A stretch of DNA of 33,600 nt from the UHGV virus genome UHGV-1067530; one strand, given 5' to 3'. Shown piece by piece: positions 8,417-14,983 of the stretch (within the stretch, counting starts at the first letter, position 1; each line of letters starts with the position of its first letter). The DNA comes from a virus. Position numbers and translations under genes: made by a program. The notes below the pieces were generated by a model that made no database searches, was not told where the DNA came from, and saw only the letters and a list, made by a program, of their open reading frames with translations.

Positions 8417-9832
8417 ATGAGCGAATTATTTAAACATGCGCACCTTCATGCAGGTCGAACTGAAAATGGTGCTGTAAACCATACTTCATCAATGTCTGCT
8501 CTTGTAGACTTTTACAAAGCTGCTGGTTCAAGCCGTAGCAACGTAGAAATCTTACCAGACCTGTTCTACAAAGCTTTGCGTGAGGATGTTGATGTTGCAG
8601 TTCGTATTTTACTGCATATGCGAGATGTACGAGAAGGTATTGGTGAGCGTAAAGCCTTCAGAACTGTTTTGCTTCAAGCAATTGAAGATAAAGTTTTAGA
8701 GCCTACACAGGTTCTTCGCATTATGGATAAGATTGCAGAACTTGGTCGTTTTGATGACTTCAAAATCTTCGTAGGTACTCGTTTCGAGACAGATGCCTTC
8801 AAACATTTAGAAGCAGCATTACTAGACCCTGCAACAGCAGGTTTGGCAGCCAAGTGGCTACCACGAGTCAAACCACGTCATAAGCAGTTTGTAAAACGTT
8901 TCTGTAAGTTTGCCAACTTGAGTGAGAAAGAGTATCGCACACTGTTGTCTGCGCTCTCTGATACAGTTGAGCAAAAAATCTCTGCTAATGAGTTTGGCAA
9001 GATTGACTACAGTAAGATTCCTTCACTTGCTGCTGCACGTTACCAAAAACTGTTTAACCGCAAAGATGGAGAACGCTACAAAGCTTACATCGAGTCCTTA
9101 TCAAAGGGTGAGACTAAGATTAATGCTGGTGCTGTTTACCCATACGATGTGATTAAGTCTGTTAAGTATGGTAATGCAGATGTTGCTAATGAGCAGTGGA
9201 AAGCACTACCAAACTGGATGGCAGAGGGTGAAAACATTCTCTGTATGTCTGATGTTTCACGTTCAATGTCTTGGGTGAATTTTGGCTCCATTACTACTCT
9301 GGATATTGGTGTATCACTTGCATTGTATGTAGCAGAACGCAATACAGGTTGCTTTAAAAATGAGTTAATGGTTTACTCAACAAACCCTCACTTCATCGAA
9401 CTGAGTGGTGATTTACGAAACCGTCATCGTCAGGTGATGCGGCACGTTGAATATGGCTCAACTAACTTACAAGCAGCTTTTGACCGTATTCTTGAGACAG
9501 GTAAAAGAAATAACTTGACTCAGAAAGATATGCCAAGTAAGCTTATCATCTTCTCAGATATGGAGTTCAATCAGGTTGATGGAGCTAACGGTCGCACAAA
9601 CTTTGAAGCAATCCAGAGTAAGTACAAGAAAGCTGGATACGAAATGCCACAACTGGTATTCTGGTACTTAGCAAACCGTAATGGTACTTGCGAAGTATCT
9701 GTTAAGGATAACGGTGTAGCAATGGTATCTGGTTTCTCTCCAGCCACTTTAAAAGCTCTGCTTGGTGGTGAGAAGTTTGACCCTATCAGCGTAATGCTCA
9801 AAGCAGTAATGATTGACCGTTATATCTGGTAA
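8417..9832 (+). CDS. vWA-domain protein with N-terminal alpha-helical domain; possibly Ro60/TROVE-like (DUF2828-type)
   Basis: MIDAS motif in ILCMSDVSRSMS (DxSxS), downstream YGSTNL (T) and LIIFSDMEF (D) at vWA-typical spacing; N-terminal ~270 aa has no motif I recognise; the TROVE assignment is inference. Confidence 0.55.
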   Translation: MSELFKHAHLHAGRTENGAVNHTSSMSALVDFYKAAGSSRSNVEILPDLFYKALREDVDVAVRILLHMRDVREGIGERKAFRTVLLQAIEDKVLEPTQVLRIMDKIAELGRFDDFKIFVGTRFETDAFKHLEAALLDPATAGLAAKWLPRVKPRHKQFVKRFCKFANLSEKEYRTLLSALSDTVEQKISANEFGKIDYSKIPSLAAARYQKLFNRKDGERYKAYIESLSKGETKINAGAVYPYDVIKSVKYGNADVANEQWKALPNWMAEGENILCMSDVSRSMSWVNFGSITTLDIGVSLALYVAERNTGCFKNELMVYSTNPHFIELSGDLRNRHRQVMRHVEYGSTNLQAAFDRILETGKRNNLTQKDMPSKLIIFSDMEFNQVDGANGRTNFEAIQSKYKKAGYEMPQLVFWYLANRNGTCEVSVKDNGVAMVSGFSPATLKALLGGEKFDPISVMLKAVMIDRYIW

Positions 9833-9997: not shown

Positions 9998-10074
9998 CTC
10001 TGTTTAGCTCAGCTTGGTAGAGCGTTCCGTTTGGGGCGGTAAGGCCGGAGGTTCAAGTCCTCCAACAGAGACCA
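9998..10074 (+). tRNA. tRNA-Pro (anticodon TGG)
   Basis: Acceptor CTCTGTT/AACAGAG, D-arm GCTC/GAGC, anticodon loop TTTGGGG, T-arm GGAGG-TTCAAGT-CCTCC, encoded CCA. Confidence 0.8.
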
Positions 10075-10081
10075 AATTAAT

Positions 10082-10159
10082 GTTCCAGTAGACAAAATGG
10101 TATAGTCACCACTCTTTCAAAGTGGATATTTGAGGGTTCAAATCCCTTCTGGAACGCCA
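10082..10159 (+). tRNA. tRNA-Glu (anticodon TTC)
   Basis: Acceptor GTTCCAG/CTGGAAC, anticodon stem CCACT/AGTGG, loop CTTTCAA, T-loop TTCAAAT, CCA. Confidence 0.8.
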
Positions 10160-10162
10160 GTT

Positions 10163-10239
10163 TTGACAGAAGACCAATTACAGCAAACTTAATCTTATTC
10201 ATCTGAAGGTAAATCGGACAAAGAAGAGATTTGGTCTGG
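10163..10239 (+). repeat. Inverted-repeat-bounded element, copy 1 (TTGACAGAAGACC-AA-TTACAGCAA ... TTGGTCTGG)
   Basis: 5' box CAGAAGACC + TTACAGCAA, 3' box GGTCTGG; termini AGACCAA/TTGGTCT are complementary. Confidence 0.6.
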
Positions 10240-10251
10240 TCATTAAGAATT

Positions 10252-10327
10252 GCGGGTATAGAGAAAGGGCGTCTCACATGTCTCATTAGCATGGTATCGG
10301 CAGGTTCGACTCCTGCACCCGCCTCCA
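10252..10327 (+). tRNA. tRNA-Met/Ile2-like (anticodon CAT), slightly irregular acceptor/T-stem register
   Basis: Acceptor GCGGGTA, D-arm GAGA/TCTC, anticodon stem CATGT/GCATG, loop CTCATTA, T-arm GCAGG-TTCGACT-CCTGC; 3' strand ACCCGCC pairs with a 1-nt offset. Confidence 0.5.
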
Positions 10328-10329
10328 AA

Positions 10330-10397
10330 TTTACAGAAGACCGTTTACAGCAATATTTATTAAATTTTTAGCGGAAAAATTGAAAGATGTGGTCTGG
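10330..10397 (+). repeat. Inverted-repeat-bounded element, copy 2 (TTTACAGAAGACCGTTTACAGCAA ... GGTCTGG)
   Basis: 5' 27 nt identical to copy 4; internal AT-rich hairpin AATTTTT/AAAAATT. Confidence 0.6.
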
Positions 10398-10410
10398 TAA
10401 TACTAAACAT

Positions 10411-10487
10411 GGTTAGGAAGCACATAAGGTATGTGCGGTCGCCTGTTAAGCGAATGGCACAGGGTTCGAATCCCTGACTAACCGCCA
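10411..10487 (+). tRNA. tRNA-Asn (anticodon GTT)
   Basis: Acceptor GGTTAGG/ACTAACC, D-arm GCAC/GTGC, anticodon loop CTGTTAA, T-arm CAGGG-TTCGAAT-CCCTG, discriminator G, CCA. Confidence 0.75.
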
Positions 10488-10556
10488 AATTTAGGAGAGA
10501 AGCGATTGCTCACCGATTTGTAAGGTGCAAGTCCTTAGCCTGAATAGAAATTAAAT

Positions 10557-10644
10557 GTGTCGTTATCCCGTAGATGGTAGCGGTGGGGACTGTAAATCCC
10601 TTGTCATTGAGACTCGGTAGGTTCGACTCCTACACGGCACACCA
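10557..10644 (+). tRNA. tRNA-Tyr (anticodon GTA), long variable arm
   Basis: Acceptor GTGTCGT/ACGGCAC, anticodon loop CTGTAAA, ~15-nt variable arm, T-arm GTAGG-TTCGACT-CCTAC, CCA. Confidence 0.7.
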
Positions 10645-10649
10645 ACAAA

Positions 10650-10727
10650 GGTTATGTAGTTTAATTTGGTTAAAATACTCCCCTGTCACGGGAGATGATG
10701 AGGGTTCAAATCCCTTCGTAACCGCCA
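10650..10727 (+). tRNA. tRNA-Asp (anticodon GTC)
   Basis: Acceptor GGTTATG/CGTAACC, anticodon stem CTCCC/GGGAG, loop CTGTCAC, T-loop TTCAAAT, CCA. Confidence 0.75.
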
Positions 10728-10788
10728 ATTTTGAGAGGGCTATTTAGCCCCTCCCTTAAAGAGTTCTTACGAGTATTCTTTAAAGGAG

Positions 10789-10862
10789 CAGAAGACCAAA
10801 TACAGCAAGTTACTTAAAATTTCAAGCCAATTTAATTTTGAAAAATTTAAAACTTGGTCTGG
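10789..10862 (+). repeat. Inverted-repeat-bounded element, copy 3 (CAGAAGACC-AAA-TACAGCAA ... TTGGTCTGG)
   Basis: Same terminal boxes; interior is a long AT-rich imperfect hairpin (CAAGTTACTTAAAATTTCAA / TTGAAAAATTTAAAACTTG). Confidence 0.6.
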
Positions 10863-10871
10863 CTCAACAAA

Positions 10872-11006
10872 TTTACAGAAGACCGTTTACAGCAAAACTT
10901 AAACAATCTATTTCTCGGTAAAGAAAAGGAGAAGGTTCGATTCCTTCACTCGGCAGGTGTCGAGTTGGTGTAATGGTAGCACTTAAGATGATAAACAACG
11001 GTCTGG
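10872..11006 (+). repeat. Inverted-repeat-bounded element, copy 4 (TTTACAGAAGACCGTT ... AACGGTCTGG), containing tRNA-like fragments
   Basis: 8-bp terminal complementarity AGACCGTT/AACGGTCT; interior holds a T-arm (GAAGG-TTCGATT-CCTTC) followed by a D-arm-like segment. Confidence 0.6.
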
Positions 11007-11007
11007 T

Positions 11008-11151
11008 AATTATCTTTGTAGATAAGTTATTAAGCTTACCTGTGAGTATGCGACCACAAAGGGTGAAAGGGTAAATTCTAGATTTAAACCCAAAAAGGCA
11101 CATCGCTACAGACCTTAAGCAAGTCTGGGTAGCTTATCTACAAAGATAATT
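11008..11151 (+). repeat. 19-bp perfect inverted repeat (AATTATCTTTGTAGATAAG / CTTATCTACAAAGATAATT) flanking 106 nt
   Basis: Read directly: 11008-11026 is the exact reverse complement of 11133-11151; the interior contains CAGACC...GTCTGG. Confidence 0.7.
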
Positions 11152-11155
11152 TAAT

Positions 11156-11231
11156 GGAAGTGTAGCAGAATGGTGATGCGGCAGACTTTTAATCTGACAG
11201 GCGATGGGTTCGAATCCCTCCACTTCTACCA
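11156..11231 (+). tRNA. tRNA-Lys (anticodon TTT)
   Basis: Acceptor GGAAGTG/CACTTCT (G1-U72 wobble), anticodon loop CTTTTAA, T-loop TTCGAAT, discriminator A, CCA. Confidence 0.7.
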
Positions 11232-11235
11232 ATAT

Positions 11236-11312
11236 GGTTCAGTCGCAGATAAGGTAATGCAAGGGTCTCATAAGCCCTATGAATGTGGGTTCGATTCCCA
11301 TCTGAACCTCCA
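11236..11312 (+). tRNA. tRNA-Met or Ile2 (anticodon CAT)
   Basis: Acceptor GGTTCAG/CTGAACC, anticodon stem AGGGT/GCCCT, loop CTCATAA, T-arm TGGG-TTCGATT-CCCA, CCA. Confidence 0.75.
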
Positions 11313-11314
11313 AT

Positions 11315-11389
11315 TGTGGGTTAGCATAAATGGTAATGCAAACGGCTGATAACCGTTAGAAGAGGGTTCGATACCCTCACCTACAACCA
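11315..11389 (+). tRNA. tRNA-Ile (anticodon GAT)
   Basis: Acceptor TGTGGGT/ACCTACA, D-arm GCA/TGC, anticodon stem AACGG/CCGTT, loop CTGATAA, T-arm GAGGG-TTCGATA-CCCTC, CCA. Confidence 0.75.
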
Positions 11390-11404
11390 ATTTCAATAAA
11401 GTTG

Positions 11405-11433
11405 TTGACATTGAGATGTGACTACTTTATAGT
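11405..11433 (+). promoter_or_regulatory. Putative sigma70-like promoter inside the tRNA array
   Basis: aaagttgTTGACA (11405-11410), 17-nt spacer, TATAGT (11428-11433). Confidence 0.45.
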
Positions 11434-11439
11434 AACTAA

Positions 11440-11726
11440 AATACTTCAGAATATGTATAATTCAAACACCAATACATGAGCGTTAGACGTAACACAATGT
11501 GGGGAAATTTGTTGTACATATTCTGAATAGTTTTCGTTGCGTAGCGTCTATTTTGCAAATTTAAAATAAATGCAAACGACAATGTTTTTCTGGCAGTAGC
11601 TTGATAGGCTAAACACCAGTGAGGTCTTCCAATCCCTCATCAAAGAATTTGGCGTACTAGCCCACGGTATGATTAATAAGGTGGGCATCTTTAAGGGCTT
11701 TCTAAGAGAGTCTTTAAAGATAATTA
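11440..11726 (+). ncRNA. Candidate structured non-coding RNA region (ORF-free, multiple hairpins)
   Basis: No ORF of 60 aa or more; 13-bp perfect inverted repeat TTCAGAATATGTA (11445-11457) / TACATATTCTGAA (11515-11527); hairpins GCCCAC...GTGGGC, TGAGG...CCTCA, TTTGCA...TGCAAA; sits downstream of the 11405 promoter. Confidence 0.35.
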
Positions 11727-11808
11727 CGGGGCGTATCTCAGCGGTCTTCTAAACCGCCGTTAACCGAGTAAGTGGAGTATGCGGGTTCGAGTCCTGCCGC
11801 CTCGACCA
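11727..11808 (+). tRNA. tRNA-like, Arg(TCT)-type anticodon arm, atypical (no canonical D-arm, 23-nt segment before the T-arm)
   Basis: Acceptor CGGGGCG/CGCCTCG, anticodon stem GCGGT/ACCGC with loop CTTCTAA, T-arm GCGGG-TTCGAGT-CCTGC, discriminator A, CCA; the D-arm 3' strand is not identifiable. Confidence 0.45.
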
Positions 11809-11950
11809 ATTAGTTAGCAGATTACTTAGACGACCTAAGCGGGTCTTCCTGTAGGGAGGTGGTCTGTATCTCATGTTTTCCAGAACATGTAAATAATCTG
11901 AGAAGGGGCTTTACAGTGTTGAGATAATACGGTAAGCTTCGAATTATAGT

Positions 11951-12033
11951 ATGGGACGATGTTAAGACTCTAAGGCATGAGCAACGGCTTCCAACACCGT
12001 TTCAAAGGGGTTCAACTCCTCCGTCCCATGCCA
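11951..12033 (+). tRNA. tRNA-like, Trp(CCA)-type anticodon loop, atypical (7 extra nt in the D region)
   Basis: Acceptor ATGGGAC/GTCCCAT perfect, hairpin ACGGC-TTCCAAC-ACCGT, T-arm AGGGG-TTCAACT-CCTCC, discriminator G, CCA; D region is 26 nt. Confidence 0.4.
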
Positions 12034-12046
12034 AAGTCTTATTAGG

Positions 12047-12134
12047 GGTAGGTAGCGGCTAATGGTAGCCAAACTGTCTTGAAAACAGTTGCCACTGTAG
12101 AGATACGGTGAGGGTTCGACTCCTTTACTTACCG
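12047..12134 (+). tRNA. tRNA-Ser (anticodon TGA), long variable arm; CCA not encoded
   Basis: Acceptor GGTAGGT/ACTTACC, anticodon stem ACTGT/ACAGT, loop CTTGAAA, ~20-nt variable arm, T-arm GAGGG-TTCGACT-CCTTT, discriminator G. Confidence 0.7.
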
Positions 12135-12137
12135 CCT

Positions 12138-12391
12138 AATAAGATTTAAAGCCAAGCTTCATTCGGATGTCGCTTTGGTATCCCGCGTGTATTGTCGTAC
12201 ACACTGATAAAACACCTAGTAGGTGTCACGGAGAAGAGATAATATCAAGCTCTCCAAAGGTTCTAGTCACCGGATTAAACAAGACTATGCAAAGACCTTT
12301 TTAGGTCTTTTTAGAGGGCTTCTAAGGTTATTACAGCTTGTTGTGGAACCTTGTTGCTTAGGTTCTTAGAAGTTCTCTAAAAAGATTTAAT
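12138..12391 (+). ncRNA. Candidate structured non-coding region (hairpins, terminator-like stem, long CTTCTAAG/CTTAGAAG hairpin)
   Basis: ORF-free; hairpins GTGTA...TACAC, ACACCTA...TAGGTGT, GGAGA...TCTCC; AAAGACC-TTTTT-AGGTCTTT followed by a T-run (about 12288-12312); inverted repeat CTTCTAAG (12320) / CTTAGAAG (12365). Confidence 0.3.
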
Positions 12392-12469
12392 GGGAGATTG
12401 ACGGTAATTGGTAAACCTACCATCCTTAGAAGTTGGTGTTTGAGGGTTCGAATCCCTTGTCTCCTACCA
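12392..12469 (+). tRNA. tRNA with Leu-type anticodon TAG but short (5-nt) variable loop
   Basis: Acceptor GGGAGAT/GTCTCCT, anticodon stem CCATC/GTTGG (one U-U), loop CTTAGAA, T-arm GAGGG-TTCGAAT-CCCTT, discriminator A, CCA. Confidence 0.55.
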
Positions 12470-12476
12470 AATTAAT

Positions 12477-12552
12477 GCAGGTGTAGCAAAATGGTTATGC
12501 GGCTGACTCTTAATCAGTAAGACGATGGGTTCAATTCCCTCCACCTGTACCA
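12477..12552 (+). tRNA. tRNA-Lys (anticodon CTT)
   Basis: Acceptor GCAGGTG/CACCTGT, anticodon stem GCTGA/TCAGT, loop CTCTTAA, T-loop TTCAATT, discriminator A, CCA; close paralog of the 11156 tRNA. Confidence 0.7.
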
Positions 12553-12558
12553 GACATT

Positions 12559-12634
12559 TGGGTCATAGTTTATATGGTTAAAATTCGAGTTTTGCAAACT
12601 TGGGAACTGAGTTCAATTCTCAGTGACTCCACCA
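12559..12634 (+). tRNA. tRNA-Ala (anticodon TGC)
   Basis: G3-U70 wobble present in the acceptor (TGGGTCA/TGACTCC), anticodon stem CGAGT/ACTTG, loop TTTGCAA, T-arm CTGAG-TTCAATT-CTCAG, discriminator A, CCA; 1-72 is unpaired (T/C). Confidence 0.7.
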
Positions 12635-12640
12635 ATTAGT

Positions 12641-12715
12641 GCATCCATAGTTTAAACGGGAAAATTACAGTCTTCCAAACTGAGGTTGAGGGTTCGATTC
12701 CCTCTGGATGCTCCA
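12641..12715 (+). tRNA. tRNA-Gly (anticodon TCC)
   Basis: Acceptor GCATCCA/TGGATGC perfect, anticodon loop CTTCCAA, T-arm GAGGG-TTCGATT-CCCTC, CCA. Confidence 0.75.
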
Positions 12716-12721
12716 AACAAT

Positions 12722-12798
12722 GCTGCTTTCGTATAATTGGCTATTACACATCCCTTGTAAGGATGGAAATGCAGGTTCGAGTCCTGTGAGCAGCACCA
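12722..12798 (+). tRNA. tRNA-Thr (anticodon TGT)
   Basis: Acceptor GCTGCTT/GAGCAGC, anticodon stem CATCC/GGATG, loop CTTGTAA, T-arm GCAGG-TTCGAGT-CCTGT, discriminator A, CCA. Confidence 0.8.
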
Positions 12799-12799
12799 A

Positions 12800-12893
12800 T
12801 TCAGAGGTCAAGTGAAAGACCGCTGGTGTCAACTGAAGACCGTAACAAATTCCACGGAGTTGAGTTAGCGGCACAACTTCAGACCTCTTTCAC
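12800..12893 (+). repeat. Repeat/palindrome-rich spacer related to the CAGAAGACC element family
   Basis: CTGAAGACCGTAACA (12836-) resembles the 5' box; AGAGGTC...GACCTCT and CTGAAG...CTTCAG inverted repeats. Confidence 0.4.
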
Positions 12894-12968
12894 ACTCGCT
12901 TAGTTTATATGGTAAAACATCACCCTTACAAGATGAAGAAAAAGGTTCAAGTCCTTTAGTGAGTACCA
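12894..12968 (+). tRNA. tRNA-Val (anticodon TAC)
   Basis: Acceptor ACTCGCT/AGTGAGT, D-stem GTTT, anticodon loop CTTACAA, T-arm AAAGG-TTCAAGT-CCTTT, discriminator A, CCA. Confidence 0.65.
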
Positions 12969-12969
12969 T

Positions 12970-13047
12970 GTTCCAGTATCCCAATTGGCAGAGGATGCAA
13001 GCTCAAACCTTGTATTAGTGACGGTTCGAATCCGTCTTGGAACACCA
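12970..13047 (+). tRNA. tRNA with Leu-type anticodon CAA but short (6-nt) variable loop
   Basis: Acceptor GTTCCAG/TTGGAAC, D-loop AATTGGCAGAG, anticodon stem TGCAAG/CTTGTA with loop CTCAAAC, T-arm GACGG-TTCGAAT-CCGTC, discriminator A, CCA. Confidence 0.55.
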
Positions 13048-13065
13048 ATTTAAAGAGGCTATTTA

Positions 13066-13623
13066 ATGAGATATTTGAAGTATGCTTCATGGATTTTCTT
13101 AGCTTTACTAGACCCAATTGCAGCAATCCTAGCAGTTATCTTAGCACCTTTCGTAGTTCCATTCTACAGTGAGAAGAAAGGACATCTACCTTTTGGATTC
13201 AGATGGATGGAGACCTATGACAACCCGATTGATGGTGACGAAGGTCACGTTAAAAGATGGGCTAAGATTAGAAAGATTGGTAAGCTGGGTGTCTACATGC
13301 AGAGAGTTGGGTGGCTCTGGAGAAACAAAGCTTATAACTTCTCTTACCATGTATTAGGAAGAGATGTAAAAGATGTTACTAAGTGGAGAGGTAATATCAA
13401 CGTAAGTTCTGACCCTGAAGATAATCAGACTGGTTATCTCCTAATGTGGAACAACAATGCTTGGGGATTATTCGCTTTTATTCCGTCAATTAAAGTCTTT
13501 GGTAAACAGTTTTACTGGAGAATTTATGTTGGATGGAAACTAAAAAGTGTTGTCCCAGAAGAAAGAGCATTCTCAAGGGAAAGAGTTATGTTGGCATTCT
13601 TTATTCATCCACTGAGAAAGTAA
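13066..13623 (+). CDS. hypothetical membrane protein (185 aa) embedded in the tRNA array
   Basis: ORF with RBS aaagagg upstream; N-terminal hydrophobic helix WIFLALLDPIAAILAVILAPFVVPF; Trp/Arg-rich remainder. Confidence 0.6.
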   Translation: MRYLKYASWIFLALLDPIAAILAVILAPFVVPFYSEKKGHLPFGFRWMETYDNPIDGDEGHVKRWAKIRKIGKLGVYMQRVGWLWRNKAYNFSYHVLGRDVKDVTKWRGNINVSSDPEDNQTGYLLMWNNNAWGLFAFIPSIKVFGKQFYWRIYVGWKLKSVVPEERAFSRERVMLAFFIHPLRK

Positions 13624-13631
13624 AGATTTAA

Positions 13632-13707
13632 AGGGGATTAGTTTACAAGGTTAAAACCTCGGTCTTTGAAATCGAAGAAGTTGGTTCAATTCCAACATCC
13701 CCCGCCA
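13632..13707 (+). tRNA. tRNA-Gln (anticodon TTG)
   Basis: Acceptor AGGGGAT/ATCCCCC with unpaired 1-72, discriminator G, anticodon stem TCGGT/ATCGA, loop CTTTGAA, T-arm GTTGG-TTCAATT-CCAAC, CCA. Confidence 0.7.
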
Positions 13708-13709
13708 AT

Positions 13710-13788
13710 GCTCCATTACTCCAATTGGCAGAGAGGCCAGACTTAAAATCTGTGTTATGTATCGGTTCGAATCCGATATGGAGTACCA
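13710..13788 (+). tRNA. tRNA with Leu-type anticodon TAA but short (7-nt) variable loop
   Basis: Acceptor GCTCCAT/ATGGAGT, D-loop AATTGGCAGAG, anticodon stem CCAGA/TCTGT, loop CTTAAAA, T-arm ATCGG-TTCGAAT-CCGAT, discriminator A, CCA. Confidence 0.55.
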
Positions 13789-13793
13789 ATTTT

Positions 13794-13869
13794 AGCGGTA
13801 TAGCATAACTGGCAATGCAGCAGTCTCTGAAGCTGTCCTATTAAGGTTCAAATCCTTATGCCGCTGCCA
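13794..13869 (+). tRNA. tRNA-Gln (anticodon CTG)
   Basis: Acceptor AGCGGTA/TGCCGCT, D-arm GCAT/ATGC, anticodon loop CTCTGAA, T-arm TAAGG-TTCAAAT-CCTTA, discriminator G, CCA. Confidence 0.7.
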
Positions 13870-13900
13870 CTTCTAAGGGTTCTTACGAGAGTCCTTAAAT

Positions 13901-13976
13901 GTGGCCTTATCATAAACGGTAATGACCCATGCTGTGAACATGGTCTATACGGGTTCAAATCCCGTAGGTCACCCCA
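13901..13976 (+). tRNA. tRNA-His (anticodon GTG)
   Basis: Acceptor GTGGCCT/AGGTCAC, D-arm TCAT/ATGA, anticodon stem CCATG/CATGG, loop CTGTGAA, T-arm ACGGG-TTCAAAT-CCCGT, discriminator C, CCA; position -1 is T, not G. Confidence 0.8.
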
Positions 13977-13981
13977 ATTTA

Positions 13982-14058
13982 TAGTCCAAGTAGCTTATAT
14001 GGTTAAAGCGCGTGTCTGAAAAACATGAGAAGAGGGTTCAAATCCCACTGGACTACCA
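13982..14058 (+). tRNA. tRNA-Phe (anticodon GAA), acceptor register slightly irregular
   Basis: D-arm GCTT/AAGC, anticodon stem CGTGT/ACATG, loop CTGAAAA, T-loop TTCAAAT; acceptor TAGTCCA/TGGACTA pairs perfectly but leaves a 4-nt linker before the D-stem. Confidence 0.6.
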
Positions 14059-14074
14059 ATTTCAAAGGTGCTTA

Positions 14075-14809
14075 ATGAAAGAGATGACAGGACAAGGTAA
14101 GGAGATTTTTAATCTCTTAAAAACCGGTAAAGGGTTTTCTAACCCACTTATTACTGGTGCAGCAGTTCTCGGTGGAACCGTAGCTGCCTCTACATCACTT
14201 GTAAGCTCTATTAGCTCTGTAACAGACCCGACAATGAATGAGAAACTTGTTGCTGCTGGACTTACAACAGTCCTTCTAAACAGCTTTACAACAAGCCTGA
14301 CAAGCACTACAGCAACTACTAAGACCCTAACAGACTATGGTCAAAAGTCTATTGATGAGTTTTCATCACGTATGCAGGTAGCAAAGGGGTATTCCAATGT
14401 TATGGGTGCAGCAGGAGAACAAGTTGGTTGTACACCATTCAGTGGTATTATGGGTGTTGCTACAGAGTATGGTCAAAAAGCTATTGACATGATTAACAGC
14501 ACACTAGACAGTGTTAACGGTGTGTTAAGTGACTTACAAGACGCTATTGATAAGGGTCTTGATACTGTTTCTGATTTAGCTAATCAAGCTGTTAGCAAGA
14601 TTAATGAAGGTATCTCAAAGATTACAGCTTATGCAGATGAAGTTGTGCAGATGATTGAAGAAGAAGCTGCCCTTATTGCAGAGTACCTTAAAACGAATAT
14701 CAATGGGTTCTTAGCAGGTATCTTACCAGACTGGTTTGATGATGCTCGCAAAACTGGTGTAATCGACACTATTGCAACACCAGAAATGAAGAACGCATTA
14801 CAGAAATAA
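14075..14809 (+). CDS. hypothetical Ser/Thr-rich protein (244 aa)
   Basis: The ORF track starts at 14012 inside tRNA-Phe; first ATG with an upstream aaagg RBS is 14075 (MKEMTGQ...); S/T-rich N-half, helical C-half. Confidence 0.55.
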   Translation: MKEMTGQGKEIFNLLKTGKGFSNPLITGAAVLGGTVAASTSLVSSISSVTDPTMNEKLVAAGLTTVLLNSFTTSLTSTTATTKTLTDYGQKSIDEFSSRMQVAKGYSNVMGAAGEQVGCTPFSGIMGVATEYGQKAIDMINSTLDSVNGVLSDLQDAIDKGLDTVSDLANQAVSKINEGISKITAYADEVVQMIEEEAALIAEYLKTNINGFLAGILPDWFDDARKTGVIDTIATPEMKNALQK

Positions 14810-14810
14810 T

Positions 14811-14903
14811 GGAAGATTAACCCTAAAAGGTAAGGGAGCAGTTTGCTAAACTGCCAGTAGCTGAGAAATCGGTGTACCAGTTCAAGTCTGGTATCTTCCT
14901 CCA
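14811..14903 (+). tRNA. tRNA-Ser (anticodon GCT), long variable arm
   Basis: Acceptor GGAAGAT/ATCTTCC perfect, D-stem CCC/GGG, anticodon stem GCAGT/ACTGC, loop TTGCTAA, ~20-nt variable arm, T-arm ACCAG-TTCAAGT-CTGGT, CCA. Confidence 0.8.
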
Positions 14904-14907
14904 ATCT

Positions 14908-14983
14908 GAATCCGTGACAGAAATGGATATGTGCCTGTCTGCAAAACAGGTTTATAAGGGTTCAAGTCCCTTCGGATTCTCCA
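14908..14983 (+). tRNA. tRNA-Cys (anticodon GCA)
   Basis: Acceptor GAATCCG/CGGATTC perfect, anticodon stem CCTGT/ACAGG, loop CTGCAAA, T-arm AAGGG-TTCAAGT-CCCTT, discriminator T, CCA. Confidence 0.8.

What the first reader, a model, noticed from the sequence alone, without database searches (positions are those of the whole stretch)
11008..11151. 19-bp perfect inverted repeat enclosing 106 nt
AATTATCTTTGTAGATAAG (11008-11026) is the exact reverse complement of 11133-11151. The enclosed sequence has no ORF and contains CAGACC...GTCTGG. A repeat this long and perfect suggests a recently active element (a MITE-like insertion or recombination site) or a long-stem RNA.
Basis: seen in the sequence. 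Interest (0 to 1): 0.45.

Follow-up and report, generated by a model that had tools for sequence, protein, structure and literature searches.

The report
Conserved long-stem RNA before phage tRNA-Lys
The perfect inverted repeat is not a mobile element. It is the closing stem of a conserved, unannotated, roughly 145-nt structured RNA that sits just upstream of tRNA-Lys(UUU) in Felix O1-like phages, beside four Y-RNA-like genes and a Ro60-like protein gene.

Summary
Positions 11008-11026 and 11133-11151 are exact reverse complements, and as RNA the helix runs to 24 bp (11008-11031 / 11128-11151).

The window is Salmonella phage Mushroom (Felixounavirus). The repeat lies inside the tRNA array, between a YrlA-like RNA with a permuted tRNA-like domain (10877-11007) and tRNA-Lys(UUU) (11156).

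The element is single-copy and syntenic in every relative inspected that has it. It was absent from 5,426 E. coli genomes.

Its stem survives compensatory changes, a coordinated 1-bp indel, and G·U pairs that work only on the + strand. More distant relatives (including Yersinia phage P778) have 22-30 bp stems of quite different sequence, always ending 0-9 nt before tRNA-Lys(UUU).

The most conserved part is an inner hairpin (11109-11127) with the loop CYUWWGCAA. It shares an AGCAA core with an "ACAGCAA" motif RNA family that I found tightly linked to DUF2828 (Ro60-fold) genes in many phages.

Kolesnikvirus phage Panisse lacks the Ro60-like gene, the motif RNAs and this element together.

The MITE and recombination-site reading is refuted. 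The long-stem RNA reading is supported. The most likely role is a Y-RNA-like partner or processing module of the phage Ro60-like system, and that role is unproven.

The parts
11008..11031 (+). P1, 5' strand of the closing helix.
   Evidence: Exact 19-nt inverted repeat. 24-bp RNA helix in the MFE fold. On 19 distinct sequences, 97.7% of cells are paired, with 3 doubly changed pairs and a coordinated 1-bp indel.
11032..11108 (+). Variable multi-hairpin interior. It includes a conserved hairpin with a CUA loop (about 11069-11091). The 5' part differs completely between 'type A' (this phage) and 'type B' relatives.
   Evidence: Alignments A1, A7 and the RNAalifold folds. Type B has three pairs with AU<->GC or UA<->CG compensatory changes in this part. 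Type A shows A->G changes that give G.U pairs in the CUA hairpin.
11109..11127 (+). H3 hairpin: CAGAC / loop CUUAAGCAA / GUCUG. It stacks directly on the P1 3' strand and is the most conserved feature of the family (loop consensus CYUWWGCAA).
   Evidence: The helix covaries across lineages: CAGAC/GUCUG, CAAACC/GGUUUG, CAGUC/GACUG, AAAGUC/GACUUU, AGAGAC/GUCUCU, CUGUUC/GAACGG. The loop is kept.
11128..11151 (+). P1, 3' strand of the closing helix.
11152..11155 (+). 4-nt linker (UAAU) between P1 and the 5' end of tRNA-Lys.
   Evidence: Sequence. tRNA-Lys starts at 11156. In relatives the distance is 0-9 nt.
11156..11231 (+). tRNA-Lys(UUU), the invariant downstream neighbour of the element.
   Evidence: ARAGORN and Rfam. 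The neighbour is the same in L098-L101.
10877..11007 (+). U4, the upstream neighbour (context). It is an ACAGCAA-motif RNA with a circularly permuted tRNA-like insert: V stem, T arm, 7-bp acceptor stem-loop and D arm. The architecture is YrlA-like.
   Evidence: Cloverleaf-like MFE fold. The acceptor stem covaries, ACUCGGC/GUCGAGU against ACCCUUC/GAAGGGU in Mordin. Hit by motif model R2 at E 0.003. The architecture is as described for YrlA in PMC4201824.
10168..10240 (+). U1, ACAGCAA-motif RNA between tRNA-Glu and tRNA-Met (context).
   Evidence: R2 best hit in the window, E 9e-5. Strict pattern match.
10335..10398 (+). U2, ACAGCAA-motif RNA between tRNA-Met and tRNA-Asn (context).
   Evidence: R2 hit, E 7e-4. 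Strict pattern match.
10790..10863 (+). U3, ACAGCAA-motif RNA (context).
   Evidence: R2 hit, E 1.5e-3. Strict pattern match.
8417..9832 (+). Gene for a 471-aa DUF2828/DUF7788 protein with a Ro60 (TROVE + vWA) fold. It is the presumed protein partner (context).
   Evidence: Pfam. AlphaFold2 model with pLDDT 87. The top 12 Foldseek PDB hits are all Ro60, E 3e-8 to 4e-6. It is 31.5-34% identical over its full length to mycobacteriophage proteins annotated 'Ro-like RNA binding protein'.

Best explanation
The inverted repeat is the terminal helix (P1, about 24 bp) of a conserved non-coding RNA of about 145 nt. I call this RNA U5.

Proposed pathway:
- U5 is transcribed on the + strand as part of the polycistronic tRNA / Y-like-RNA array, downstream of the phage's Ro60-like gene.
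- RNase P cleavage at the 5' end of tRNA-Lys(UUU) would create its 3' end, 4 nt beyond P1.
- P1 locks both ends together, as in Y RNAs, and is long enough to be a host RNase III site.
- The invariant H3 loop (CYUWWGCAA) sits 4 nt from its helix, like the AGCAA core of the neighbouring ACAGCAA-motif RNAs. I propose it is the docking site for the Ro60-like protein.
- The variable interior would then be a lineage-specific module.

Shown:
- It is a real, + strand, evolutionarily maintained RNA structure.
- It is single-copy and always next to tRNA-Lys(UUU).
- It co-occurs with the Ro60-like gene and the motif RNAs.

Inferred:
- Transcription and processing.
- Binding to the Ro60-like protein.
- Any downstream function, such as tRNA quality control or counter-defence.
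For: Structure:
- P1 and H3 are kept through compensatory changes, G.U pairs and a paired indel in 19 distinct Felixouna-, Moogle- and Suspvirus sequences. 98.3% of cells are paired, against 25-48% when partners are slid.
- A covariance model of type B finds the window's type A at 57 bits, E 2e-13.
- The same model finds one copy in each of four more distant contigs (Ro60-like protein 52-63% identical). Each copy ends 0-9 nt before tRNA-Lys(UUU).
- Those four fold on their own into 24-30 bp terminal stems of different sequence. In two of them, and in all three closer sequences folded, the H3 hairpin abuts the stem in the MFE fold. In L099 and L101, H3 is seen only in the model alignment.

Strand:
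- The G.U pairs would be A.C mismatches on the minus strand.

Context:
- The element lies 1.2 kb downstream of, and on the same strand as, a gene whose product has a Ro60 fold.
- The four best hits in the whole window to a model built only from distant phages' ACAGCAA-motif RNAs lie next to it.
- That motif gives 40 strict hits on the + strand and 0 on the - strand in 75 distant DUF2828 loci, against about 0.25 in shuffles. All hits are intergenic, and 35 lie within 1 kb of the gene.
- AGCAA is enriched in the loops of those RNAs: 22 observed against 5.7 +/- 2.4 expected.

Phyletic pattern:
- Erwinia phage Panisse (Kolesnikvirus, same subfamily, syntenic tRNA array) has no Ro60-like gene (tblastn best E 0.55), no motif RNAs and no U5. 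Its tRNA-Lys(UUU) follows tRNA-Phe by 6 nt.

Literature:
- In Bas63, a Felixounavirus, gp130 is described as structurally Ro60-like and lies directly upstream of the tRNA genes, the position the window's DUF2828 gene occupies; I did not compare the two sequences. It counters the ppl defence. The authors guessed that some of the 'tRNAs' are Y RNAs but identified none (PMC11482910).
Against: - U5 is not a canonical member of the motif family. Model R2 does not hit H3 even at E <= 10. H3 has a 5-6 bp helix rather than 7 bp, lacks the 'AC' before AGCAA, and in one lineage reads UGCAA.
- U5 has no GNCGAA/CGAA Ro60-binding motif and no tRNA-like domain, which are the features of described bacterial and phage Y RNAs (sequence).
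- U5 was not found in 75 more distant DUF2828-encoding phage loci, so the protein does not generally need it.
- The co-absence in Kolesnikvirus is a single evolutionary event.
- Two other long hairpins sit in the same array, at 11432-11540 and 12301-12390, the latter directly before tRNA-Leu(UAG). Long stems may therefore be a general processing device here.
- There are no expression or binding data.
Confidence: 0.45

Rival explanations
1. U5 is purely a processing or insulating hairpin. P1 is a double-stranded RNase III site, or a folding insulator, that separates the Y-like RNA block from the tRNA-Lys-Met-Ile block of the polycistronic precursor. The interior has no function of its own.
For: P1 is 22-30 bp in every lineage, at or above the two helical turns that E. 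coli RNase III is known to need (established knowledge), and it is A/U-rich. It abuts a tRNA 5' end by 0-9 nt. Two further long hairpins stand in the same array. One of them, directly before tRNA-Leu(UAG), has a similar 3' end (AAAGAU..UUUAAUG) and is conserved with compensatory changes in Mordin.
Against: The H3 loop sequence and the CUA-loop hairpin are conserved across lineages whose P1 sequences have diverged. A mere spacer stem does not explain that. Kolesnikvirus matures the same kind of tRNA array, including tRNA-Lys(UUU), without the element. Deletion variants ESCO56 and ESCO45 have lost the neighbouring RNAs, and ESCO56 also neighbouring tRNAs, yet both keep U5 (ESCO56 over its full length, ESCO45 at 99.4% identity).
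Confidence: 0.25
2. U5 is a structured leader specific to tRNA-Lys(UUU). It would control maturation of this tRNA or protect it. Host anticodon nucleases often target tRNA-Lys(UUU), for example PrrC, and PARIS as I recall it. H3 could act as a decoy or recruitment site.
For: The only invariant neighbour in all lineages is tRNA-Lys(UUU), while the upstream neighbours vary. The H3 stem (CAGAC...GUCUG) resembles the anticodon stem of the adjacent tRNA-Lys (CAGA/UCUG) (resemblance seen by eye only).
Against: The H3 loop is 9 nt, not 7, and carries no UUU. Kolesnikvirus keeps tRNA-Lys(UUU) without the element. Nothing was tested on nucleases. The resemblance to the anticodon arm is weak.
Confidence: 0.12
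3. The repeat marks a mobile element (MITE-like) or a DNA-level recombination, origin or cruciform site.
For: In this phage the 19 bp are perfect. The interior exists in two very different versions (types A and B) between conserved arms. An old exchange of the interior by recombination could explain this.
Against: The element is single-copy in nearly all of the phage records listed and has no other copy in the window. It is absent from E. coli genomes. It has no target-site duplication, and no empty site was seen among the relatives that carry the Ro60-like gene. The arms in relatives carry G.U pairs, one tolerated mismatch and compensatory changes. That pattern fits selection on an RNA helix, not on DNA termini.
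Confidence: 0.03

Closest known systems
Bacterial and phage Y RNAs (YrlA/YrlB; Thermus phage phiLo Yrl1/Yrl2) bound by Ro60 (PMC4201824, PMC12135203)
   Same: U5 is encoded close to, and on the same strand as, a Ro60-fold protein gene. It is a small RNA whose 5' and 3' ends pair into a long stem around a large, structured interior. Several such RNAs lie in tandem, and one neighbour (U4) has the YrlA-type permuted tRNA-like domain.
   Different: U5 has no GNCGAA/CGAA motif and no T or D arms. Its conserved element is a hairpin loop, CYUWWGCAA. The protein belongs to DUF2828/DUF7788 and is not annotated as TROVE; its likeness to Ro60 was seen only by fold. Binding is untested.
ACAGCAA-motif RNAs associated with DUF2828 genes (family delineated here; no match in Rfam 15 and none found in the papers searched)
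   Same: Same operon. Both have an AGCAA core placed 4 nt after the 5' strand of a helix, followed on the 3' side by G. Both share the AGACC/GGUCU helix with U1-U4 of this phage.
   Different: The canonical units have a 7-bp helix AG-N5/N5-CU formed by the ends of the RNA, the full ACAGCAA, and an insert of 9-230 nt. U5 carries only a 5-6 bp internal hairpin with a 9-nt loop and is not detected by the motif model.
RNase III processing hairpins of phage polycistronic transcripts, such as the T7 early sites (from general knowledge; not tested here)
   Same: A helix of at least 22 bp placed between functional units of a polycistronic transcript.
   Different: U5 has a conserved, covarying, multi-hairpin interior and a sequence-conserved loop. 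Cleavage has not been shown.
Small stable RNAs in the phage T4 tRNA gene cluster (species 1 and 2 RNAs, rnaC/rnaD; from memory, not tested here)
   Same: Non-tRNA stable RNAs of about 120-140 nt, co-transcribed with and processed from a phage tRNA cluster. Their function has long been unknown.
   Different: No sequence or structure comparison was made, and homology is not claimed.
MITEs and other elements bounded by terminal inverted repeats
   Same: A short non-coding segment bounded by a perfect inverted repeat.
   Different: Single copy, no target-site duplication, no empty sites, and arms that evolve like an RNA helix.

Membership tests
MITE / TIR-bounded mobile element | Multiple dispersed copies in the genome or in related or host genomes | tested here: not met
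   Only the two arms are found in the window. There is 1 place per record in nearly all of the phage records listed. No match in 5,426 E. coli genomes.
MITE / TIR-bounded mobile element | Target-site duplication flanking the inverted repeats | tested here: not met
   The flanks CTGGT | ... | TAATG share no direct repeat.
MITE / TIR-bounded mobile element | Presence/absence polymorphism (empty sites) among close relatives | tested here: not met
   The element is present at the same place in all 22 Felixouna-, Moogle- and Suspvirus loci inspected, including the deletion variant ESCO56. The only absence is in a genus that also lacks the Ro60-like gene. Not all 243 matching records were inspected.
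Y RNA / YrlA (Ro60 partner) | Encoded within a few kb of a Ro60-type gene on the same strand | tested here: met
   The gene at 8417-9832 (+) has a Ro60 fold. U5 lies 1.2 kb downstream on the + strand.
Y RNA / YrlA (Ro60 partner) | Long stem formed by the 5' and 3' ends around a large internal region | tested here: met
   P1 is 22-30 bp in all lineages. The actual RNA ends are unknown.
Y RNA / YrlA (Ro60 partner) | Conserved Ro60-binding motif (GGUCCGA in animals; GNCGAAN0-1G / CGAA in bacteria and phages) | tested here: not met
   Neither type A nor type B contains CGAA or GNCGAA. The motifs are as described in PMC4201824 and PMC12135203.
Y RNA / YrlA (Ro60 partner) | tRNA-like domain (T arm, D arm, acceptor-like stem-loop) | tested here: not met
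   Absent from U5. Present in the adjacent U4.
Y RNA / YrlA (Ro60 partner) | Physical association with the Ro60-type protein | not testable with these tools
   Needs RIP/CLIP or EMSA.
ACAGCAA-motif RNAs of DUF2828 loci (defined here) | 7-bp helix AG-N5/N5-CU closed by the RNA ends, a 0-4 nt spacer (2 nt in this window's units), ACAGCAA, and G after the 3' strand | tested here: not met
   Model R2 hits U1-U4 (E 9e-5 to 3e-3) but not U5 at E <= 10. H3 shares only the AGCAA core, the 4-nt spacing and the 3' G. The model penalises short loops, so a distant relationship is not excluded.
RNase III processing site | About 20 bp or more of mostly regular double-stranded RNA | tested here: met
   24 bp here and 22-30 bp in relatives.
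RNase III processing site | RNase III-dependent cleavage in vivo or in vitro | not testable with these tools
   Needs end mapping in wild-type versus rnc hosts.
Intrinsic terminator | G+C-rich hairpin followed by a U run | tested here: not met
   The scan reports no terminator-like site at 11008-11160. The stem is A/U-rich and is followed by UAAUGG.
Any Rfam 15 family | A match at or near a family's gathering score | tested here: not met
   No hit over U5 at gathering score. None up to E 10 for type A. For type B, only a 14-bit match to a Tetrahymena snoRNA model (gathering score 85, E 2.4), which is noise.

The most novel reading that the evidence does not exclude
U5 and the four ACAGCAA-motif RNAs may be the RNA subunits of a previously undescribed phage Ro60-like ribonucleoprotein with an AGCAA recognition signature, distinct from the CGAA-type Y RNAs. 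On this reading U5 physically couples that particle to the precursor of tRNA-Lys(UUU). The phage could then guard, repair or quality-control the tRNA that host anticodon nucleases most often attack. That could also explain how gp130-type proteins counter defence systems such as ppl.
Probability: 0.2. Interest if true: 0.8.

Novelty: new variant of a known kind. Interest (0 to 1): 0.6.

Why it matters
The Felix O1-like phages are widely used typing and therapy phages, yet this region is annotated only as tRNAs plus spurious 'hypothetical proteins'.

The analysis turns an odd palindrome into a defined RNA gene family. The family has a testable structure: P1, H3 and the loop CYUWWGCAA.

The analysis also identifies the likely RNA partners of a phage Ro60-like protein. 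A 2024 preprint shows that this protein in Bas63 counters an anti-phage system, but its RNAs were only guessed at.

The wider ACAGCAA motif includes copies in the 5' UTR of the protein's own gene. DUF2828 homologues occur in 710 phage records. That opens Ro60/Y-RNA biology in phages to direct experiment.

Tried and rejected
- Rfam at gathering and at permissive thresholds found no family for U5, for U1-U4, or for the units in distant loci.
- A sequence search of the Ro60-like protein against PDB found nothing. Only the fold search did.
- The MITE or mobility reading was rejected.
- The minus-strand ORF 10873-11103 as a real gene was rejected, because it is not conserved in Mordin.
- U5 homologues were sought in 75 distant DUF2828 loci. 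The covariance model found none. A pattern scan for H3-like hairpins gave two hits; the one I followed up (L054) lies in sequence that read as protein-coding by eye, and the L031 hit was not followed up beyond a tRNA scan.
- H3 as a canonical ACAGCAA unit was not supported by model R2.
- A trans-acting seed in the H3 loop was tested. Complements are not enriched in the window: 15 found against 12.8 expected.
- The apparent 317-bp 'insertion' in VpaE1 and JK55 is an artefact of BLAST joining repeated units. The Asp-Lys gap there is the normal 431 nt.
- A resemblance between the type-B interior (GGAGCUAAU..UCGUCC) and a hairpin in the long motif RNA of L017 was judged not convincing.
- The loop-loop complementarity between H3 and the hairpin before tRNA-Leu is 7 nt here but, counted by eye, only 5 nt in Mordin, and it is not seen in L098. 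I left it as an observation.
- The register-based count of doubly changed P1 pairs between lineages is inflated by bulge shifts. I use it only qualitatively.

Full report
**1. Observation.**
The window is Salmonella phage Mushroom (Felixounavirus, 100% identity to KP143762). The 19-nt sequence AATTATCTTTGTAGATAAG occurs at 11008-11026, and its exact reverse complement occurs at 11133-11151. No other match with up to 3 mismatches exists in 33.6 kb, against 0.03 expected from shuffles.

The repeat finder extends the arms to 22 nt at 95%. Folded as RNA, the + strand forms a 24-bp helix (11008-31 / 11128-51, three G.U pairs) around a multi-hairpin interior. The MFE is -48.3 kcal/mol, z = -5.3.

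**2. Setting.**
The repeat lies inside an array of 24 tRNA genes (9998-14983), in the 428-nt gap between tRNA-Asp (10650-10727) and tRNA-Lys(UUU) (11156-11231). About 170 nt upstream of the array is a 471-aa gene (8417-9832) of families DUF2828/DUF7788.

Its AlphaFold2 model (pLDDT 87, pTM 0.87) matches Ro60 structures over its full length. The 12 best Foldseek hits in the PDB are all Ro60, including Xenopus Ro60, D. radiodurans Rsr and Thermus phage phiLo Ro60 (E 3e-8 to 4e-6, TM 0.44-0.64). A sequence-only search of the PDB found nothing.

By tblastn the protein is 31.5-34% identical over its whole length to mycobacteriophage proteins annotated 'Ro-like RNA binding protein', and homologues occur in 710 phage records. 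A preprint reports that a protein of the Felixounavirus Bas63 (gp130), encoded directly upstream of its tRNA genes as this gene is here, is structurally Ro60-like and counters the 'ppl' defence system. I did not compare the two sequences. [quoted passage not shown]

**3. Neighbours of the repeat.**
The gaps of the array hold four copies of a unit of this form: 5'-A-[AG-N5]-NU-ACAGCAA ... insert ... [N5-CU]-G-3'. They are U1 10168-10240, U2 10335-10398, U3 10790-10863 and U4 10877-11007.

U4, which abuts the repeat, carries a circularly permuted tRNA-like insert. It has a V stem, a T arm (GAAGG-UUCGAUU-CCUUC), a 7-bp acceptor-like stem closed by a 4-nt loop, and a D arm. The MFE fold is a permuted cloverleaf. 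The acceptor stem covaries between Mushroom (ACUCGGC/GUCGAGU) and Mordin (ACCCUUC/GAAGGGU). This is the architecture described for YrlA, the tRNA-mimicking Y RNA of bacteria and mycobacteriophages (PMC4201824).

The same motif is tightly linked to DUF2828 genes far beyond this phage group:
- In 75 IMG/VR loci whose proteins are 38-47% identical, a strict pattern gives 40 hits on the gene's strand and none on the other. Shuffles give about 0.25.
- All 40 hits are intergenic, and 35 lie within 1 kb of the gene.
- Eight sit in its 5' UTR just before the ribosome-binding site.
- A covariance model built only from those distant loci (R2) returns U1-U4 as the four best hits in the whole window (E 9e-5 to 3e-3).
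- Rfam has no matching family, and I found no description in the papers searched.

**4. The repeat is an RNA helix, not a DNA element.**
- The element (U5, 11007-11155) occurs once per genome, at the same place, in Felixounavirus, Mooglevirus and Suspvirus (243 records match).
- It is absent from 5,426 complete E. coli genomes and has no target-site duplication.
- Two versions exist. 'Type A' is this phage and about 190 records at 95% identity or more. 'Type B' is found in all three genera. They share P1, a CUA-loop hairpin and H3, but are unalignable in the 5' interior.
- On 19 distinct sequences, 98.3% of cells in P1, the CUA hairpin and H3 are paired, against 25-48% when partners are slid by 1-3 columns.
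- Four pairs change on both sides (5/149 and 13/141 CG<->UA, 20/134 CG<->GC, H3 110/126 GC<->AU). One A-U pair is present or absent on both strands together.
- One-sided changes give G.U. G.U pairs would be A.C on the minus strand, so the RNA is read on the tRNA strand.
- Within type B, three interior pairs show AU<->GC or UA<->CG compensation.
- Caveat: most of these changes separate types A and B, so the number of independent events is small.

**5. Wider family.**
A covariance model of type B (R1) finds the window's type A at 57 bits (E 2e-13) and nothing in the 75 distant loci. It does find one copy in each of four intermediate contigs (Ro60-like protein 52-63% identical):
- Yersinia phage vB_YenM_P778, L100 7494-7660 (E 6e-10)
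- L098 6278-6426
- L101 7016-7160
- L099 7248-7400

Each ends 0-9 nt before tRNA-Lys(UUU), whereas the upstream neighbours differ.

Folded on their own, all four give terminal stems of 24-30 bp with 3-4 G.U pairs and very different sequences. An example is AGUUUUAUUUGAAGUGAGUCUUGUG / CGCAAGGCGCACUUCAAAUAGAAUU.

H3 is placed directly against the 3' strand of P1. Its helix covaries (CAGAC, CAAACC, CAGUC, AAAGUC, AGAGAC, CUGUUC with their partners), while its 9-nt loop stays CYUWWGCAA. In L099 and L101, H3 is seen in the model alignment but not in the MFE fold. H3 is therefore the functional core, and P1 is a structural requirement.

**6. Link to the Ro60-like system.**
H3 carries AGCAA four nucleotides after the 5' strand of its helix. 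The canonical units have the same spacing (helix-NUAC-AGCAA), and both have a G after the 3' strand. AGCAA is also enriched as a second element inside the inserts of the distant units: 22 occurrences against 5.7 +/- 2.4 expected, with a maximum of 15 in 1000 shuffles.

Against membership, model R2 does not detect H3. [quoted passage not shown]

There is a natural experiment in the same subfamily. Kolesnikvirus phages (Erwinia phage Panisse, Hafnia phage SPARTY) have the syntenic DUF5681 gene followed directly by the tRNA array.
- Panisse has no Ro60-like gene anywhere in its genome (tblastn best E 0.55).
- Neither RNA model gives a credible hit in it. R1's only low-E matches (E 0.001-0.045) overlie tRNA-Met on both strands.
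- Its tRNA-Lys(UUU) lies 6 nt after tRNA-Phe.

So U5 travels with the Ro60-like gene and not with tRNA-Lys as such. This rests on one loss or gain event.

**7. How it probably works.**
Promoter-like sites on the + strand lie before the array (9851, 9942), and the next good one lies after tRNA-Ile (11405). There is no terminator-like site in between. This is a consensus scan only, but it fits U1-U5 and the tRNAs from Pro to Ile being one transcript.

The following steps are inferred, not shown:
- RNase P cutting at tRNA-Lys +1 would leave U5 with a 3' end 4 nt beyond P1.
- P1 would protect both ends and, being 22 bp or longer, could also be cut by host RNase III.
- The H3 loop would be bound by the Ro60-like protein.

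I rate this reading at about 0.45. The reading as a pure processing or insulating stem is about 0.25. It gains from two further long hairpins in the array (11432-11540, and 12301-12390 just before tRNA-Leu(UAG)), the latter conserved with compensatory changes in Mordin. The reading as a leader dedicated to tRNA-Lys(UUU) is about 0.12. A mobile or DNA-level element is about 0.03.

**8. Novelty and verdict.**

U5 is an unannotated structured RNA with no Rfam family. Public records place spurious ORFs or nothing over it. It is best seen as a new variant within the known kind 'Ro60-associated / tRNA-cluster small RNAs'.

The more notable by-product is the ACAGCAA-motif RNA family, with YrlA-like and 5'-UTR members, linked to DUF2828 Ro60-like genes in many phages. 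That makes the RNA partners of an anti-defence protein directly testable.

Noticed in passing
window 10168-10240, 10335-10398, 10790-10863, 10877-11007: Four copies of an unannotated RNA motif: a 7-bp helix AG-N5/N5-CU, then NU-ACAGCAA, a variable insert, and a 3' G. They are the four best hits in the window to a covariance model built only from distant phages (E 9e-5 to 3e-3).
   Followed up: yes
window 10877-11007: U4 contains a circularly permuted tRNA-like domain: V stem, T arm, 7-bp acceptor stem closed by a 4-nt loop, and D arm. The acceptor covaries in Mordin. This is the YrlA architecture. The 7-bp acceptor stem could make it an RNase P substrate, as reported for M. smegmatis YrlA.
   Followed up: partly
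L015 4954-4987, L018 4946-4987, L020 1764-1796, L027 2859-2891, L062 4907-4944, L081 4908-4967, L082 4887-4943, L086 4851-4941: In distant phages a minimal copy of the ACAGCAA motif sits in the 5' UTR of the DUF2828 (Ro60-like) gene itself, 11-60 nt before the start codon. This suggests the protein autoregulates its own mRNA. The Felix O1-like phages have no such copy before 8417.
   Followed up: partly
L017 6465-6730, and equivalents in L021, L022, L024, L026, L028, L030, L032, L035, L019, L076: A large RNA of about 250 nt is closed by the ACAGCAA-motif helix. It has long conserved blocks (for example GUCAUACCACCCCAAUAGGUG and GGGUUAUUCUGCCGAGAAGAAAAUCACGAAC) immediately downstream of DUF2828 genes in many metagenomic phages. 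It has no Rfam match.
   Followed up: no
window 12301-12390: A second long hairpin: an outer stem of about 24-29 bp with two G.U pairs, z = -6. It ends 1 nt before tRNA-Leu(UAG) and has a 3' end (AAAGAUUUAAUG) like that of U5. It is conserved with compensatory changes in Mordin. Its apical loop UGUUGCUU is complementary to 7 nt of the U5 H3 loop here (UAAGCAA/UUGCUUA) but, counted by eye, to only 5 nt in Mordin.
   Followed up: partly
window 11432-11540: A third long hairpin (27-nt arms, 81% complementary, z = -6) lies right after the best sigma-70-like promoter match of the region (TTGACA-17-TATAGT, 11405-11433). Its minus strand gives a weak hit to the motif model (E 0.1, ACAACAA instead of ACAGCAA).
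   Followed up: no
window 10728-10790: Two adjacent hairpins (GAGGGCUAUUUAGCCCCUC, and CCUUAAAGAGUUCUUACGAGUAUUCUUUAAAGG) lie between tRNA-Asp and U3. They are almost invariant across Felixouna- and Mooglevirus. Their function is unknown and no U run follows.
   Followed up: no
window 11727-11805: A tRNA-like sequence is found by Rfam (31.7 bits) but not by ARAGORN. Relatives annotate a tRNA-Arg about 250 nt after tRNA-Ile, but I did not check that it is this position. Its leader (UCUUUAAAGAUAAUUAC) repeats the 3' arm of U5 at 13 of 15 positions.
   Followed up: no
L008 (Escherichia phage ESCO56) 1480-1700; also ESCO45: These are natural deletion variants of the array. ESCO56 has lost tRNA-Asp, U3, most of U4, the 3' part of tRNA-Lys, tRNA-Met and tRNA-Ile, yet keeps U5 over its full length. 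ESCO45 has lost most of U3-U4 but keeps U5 at 99.4% identity.
   Followed up: partly
L102/L103 (Erwinia phage Panisse, Hafnia phage SPARTY), 1256-3330: Kolesnikvirus phages keep the DUF5681 gene and a 29-30-tRNA array. They lack the Ro60-like gene, all ACAGCAA units and U5. Panisse encodes a ProQ-like RNA chaperone, a PseT-like kinase/phosphatase and a CCA-adding enzyme elsewhere.
   Followed up: partly
window 11030-11104 versus L003 1455-1530: The 5' interior of U5 exists in two unalignable versions (types A and B) between conserved arms. Type B is shared by three genera, so type A looks derived. This may reflect an old replacement of the interior.
   Followed up: partly
window 14811-14903 (tRNA-Ser GCU): The conserved AGCAA core is complementary to the anticodon loop UUGCU of tRNA-Ser(GCU): codon AGC plus A, as in a T-box specifier. 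This may be coincidence and was not examined.
   Followed up: no
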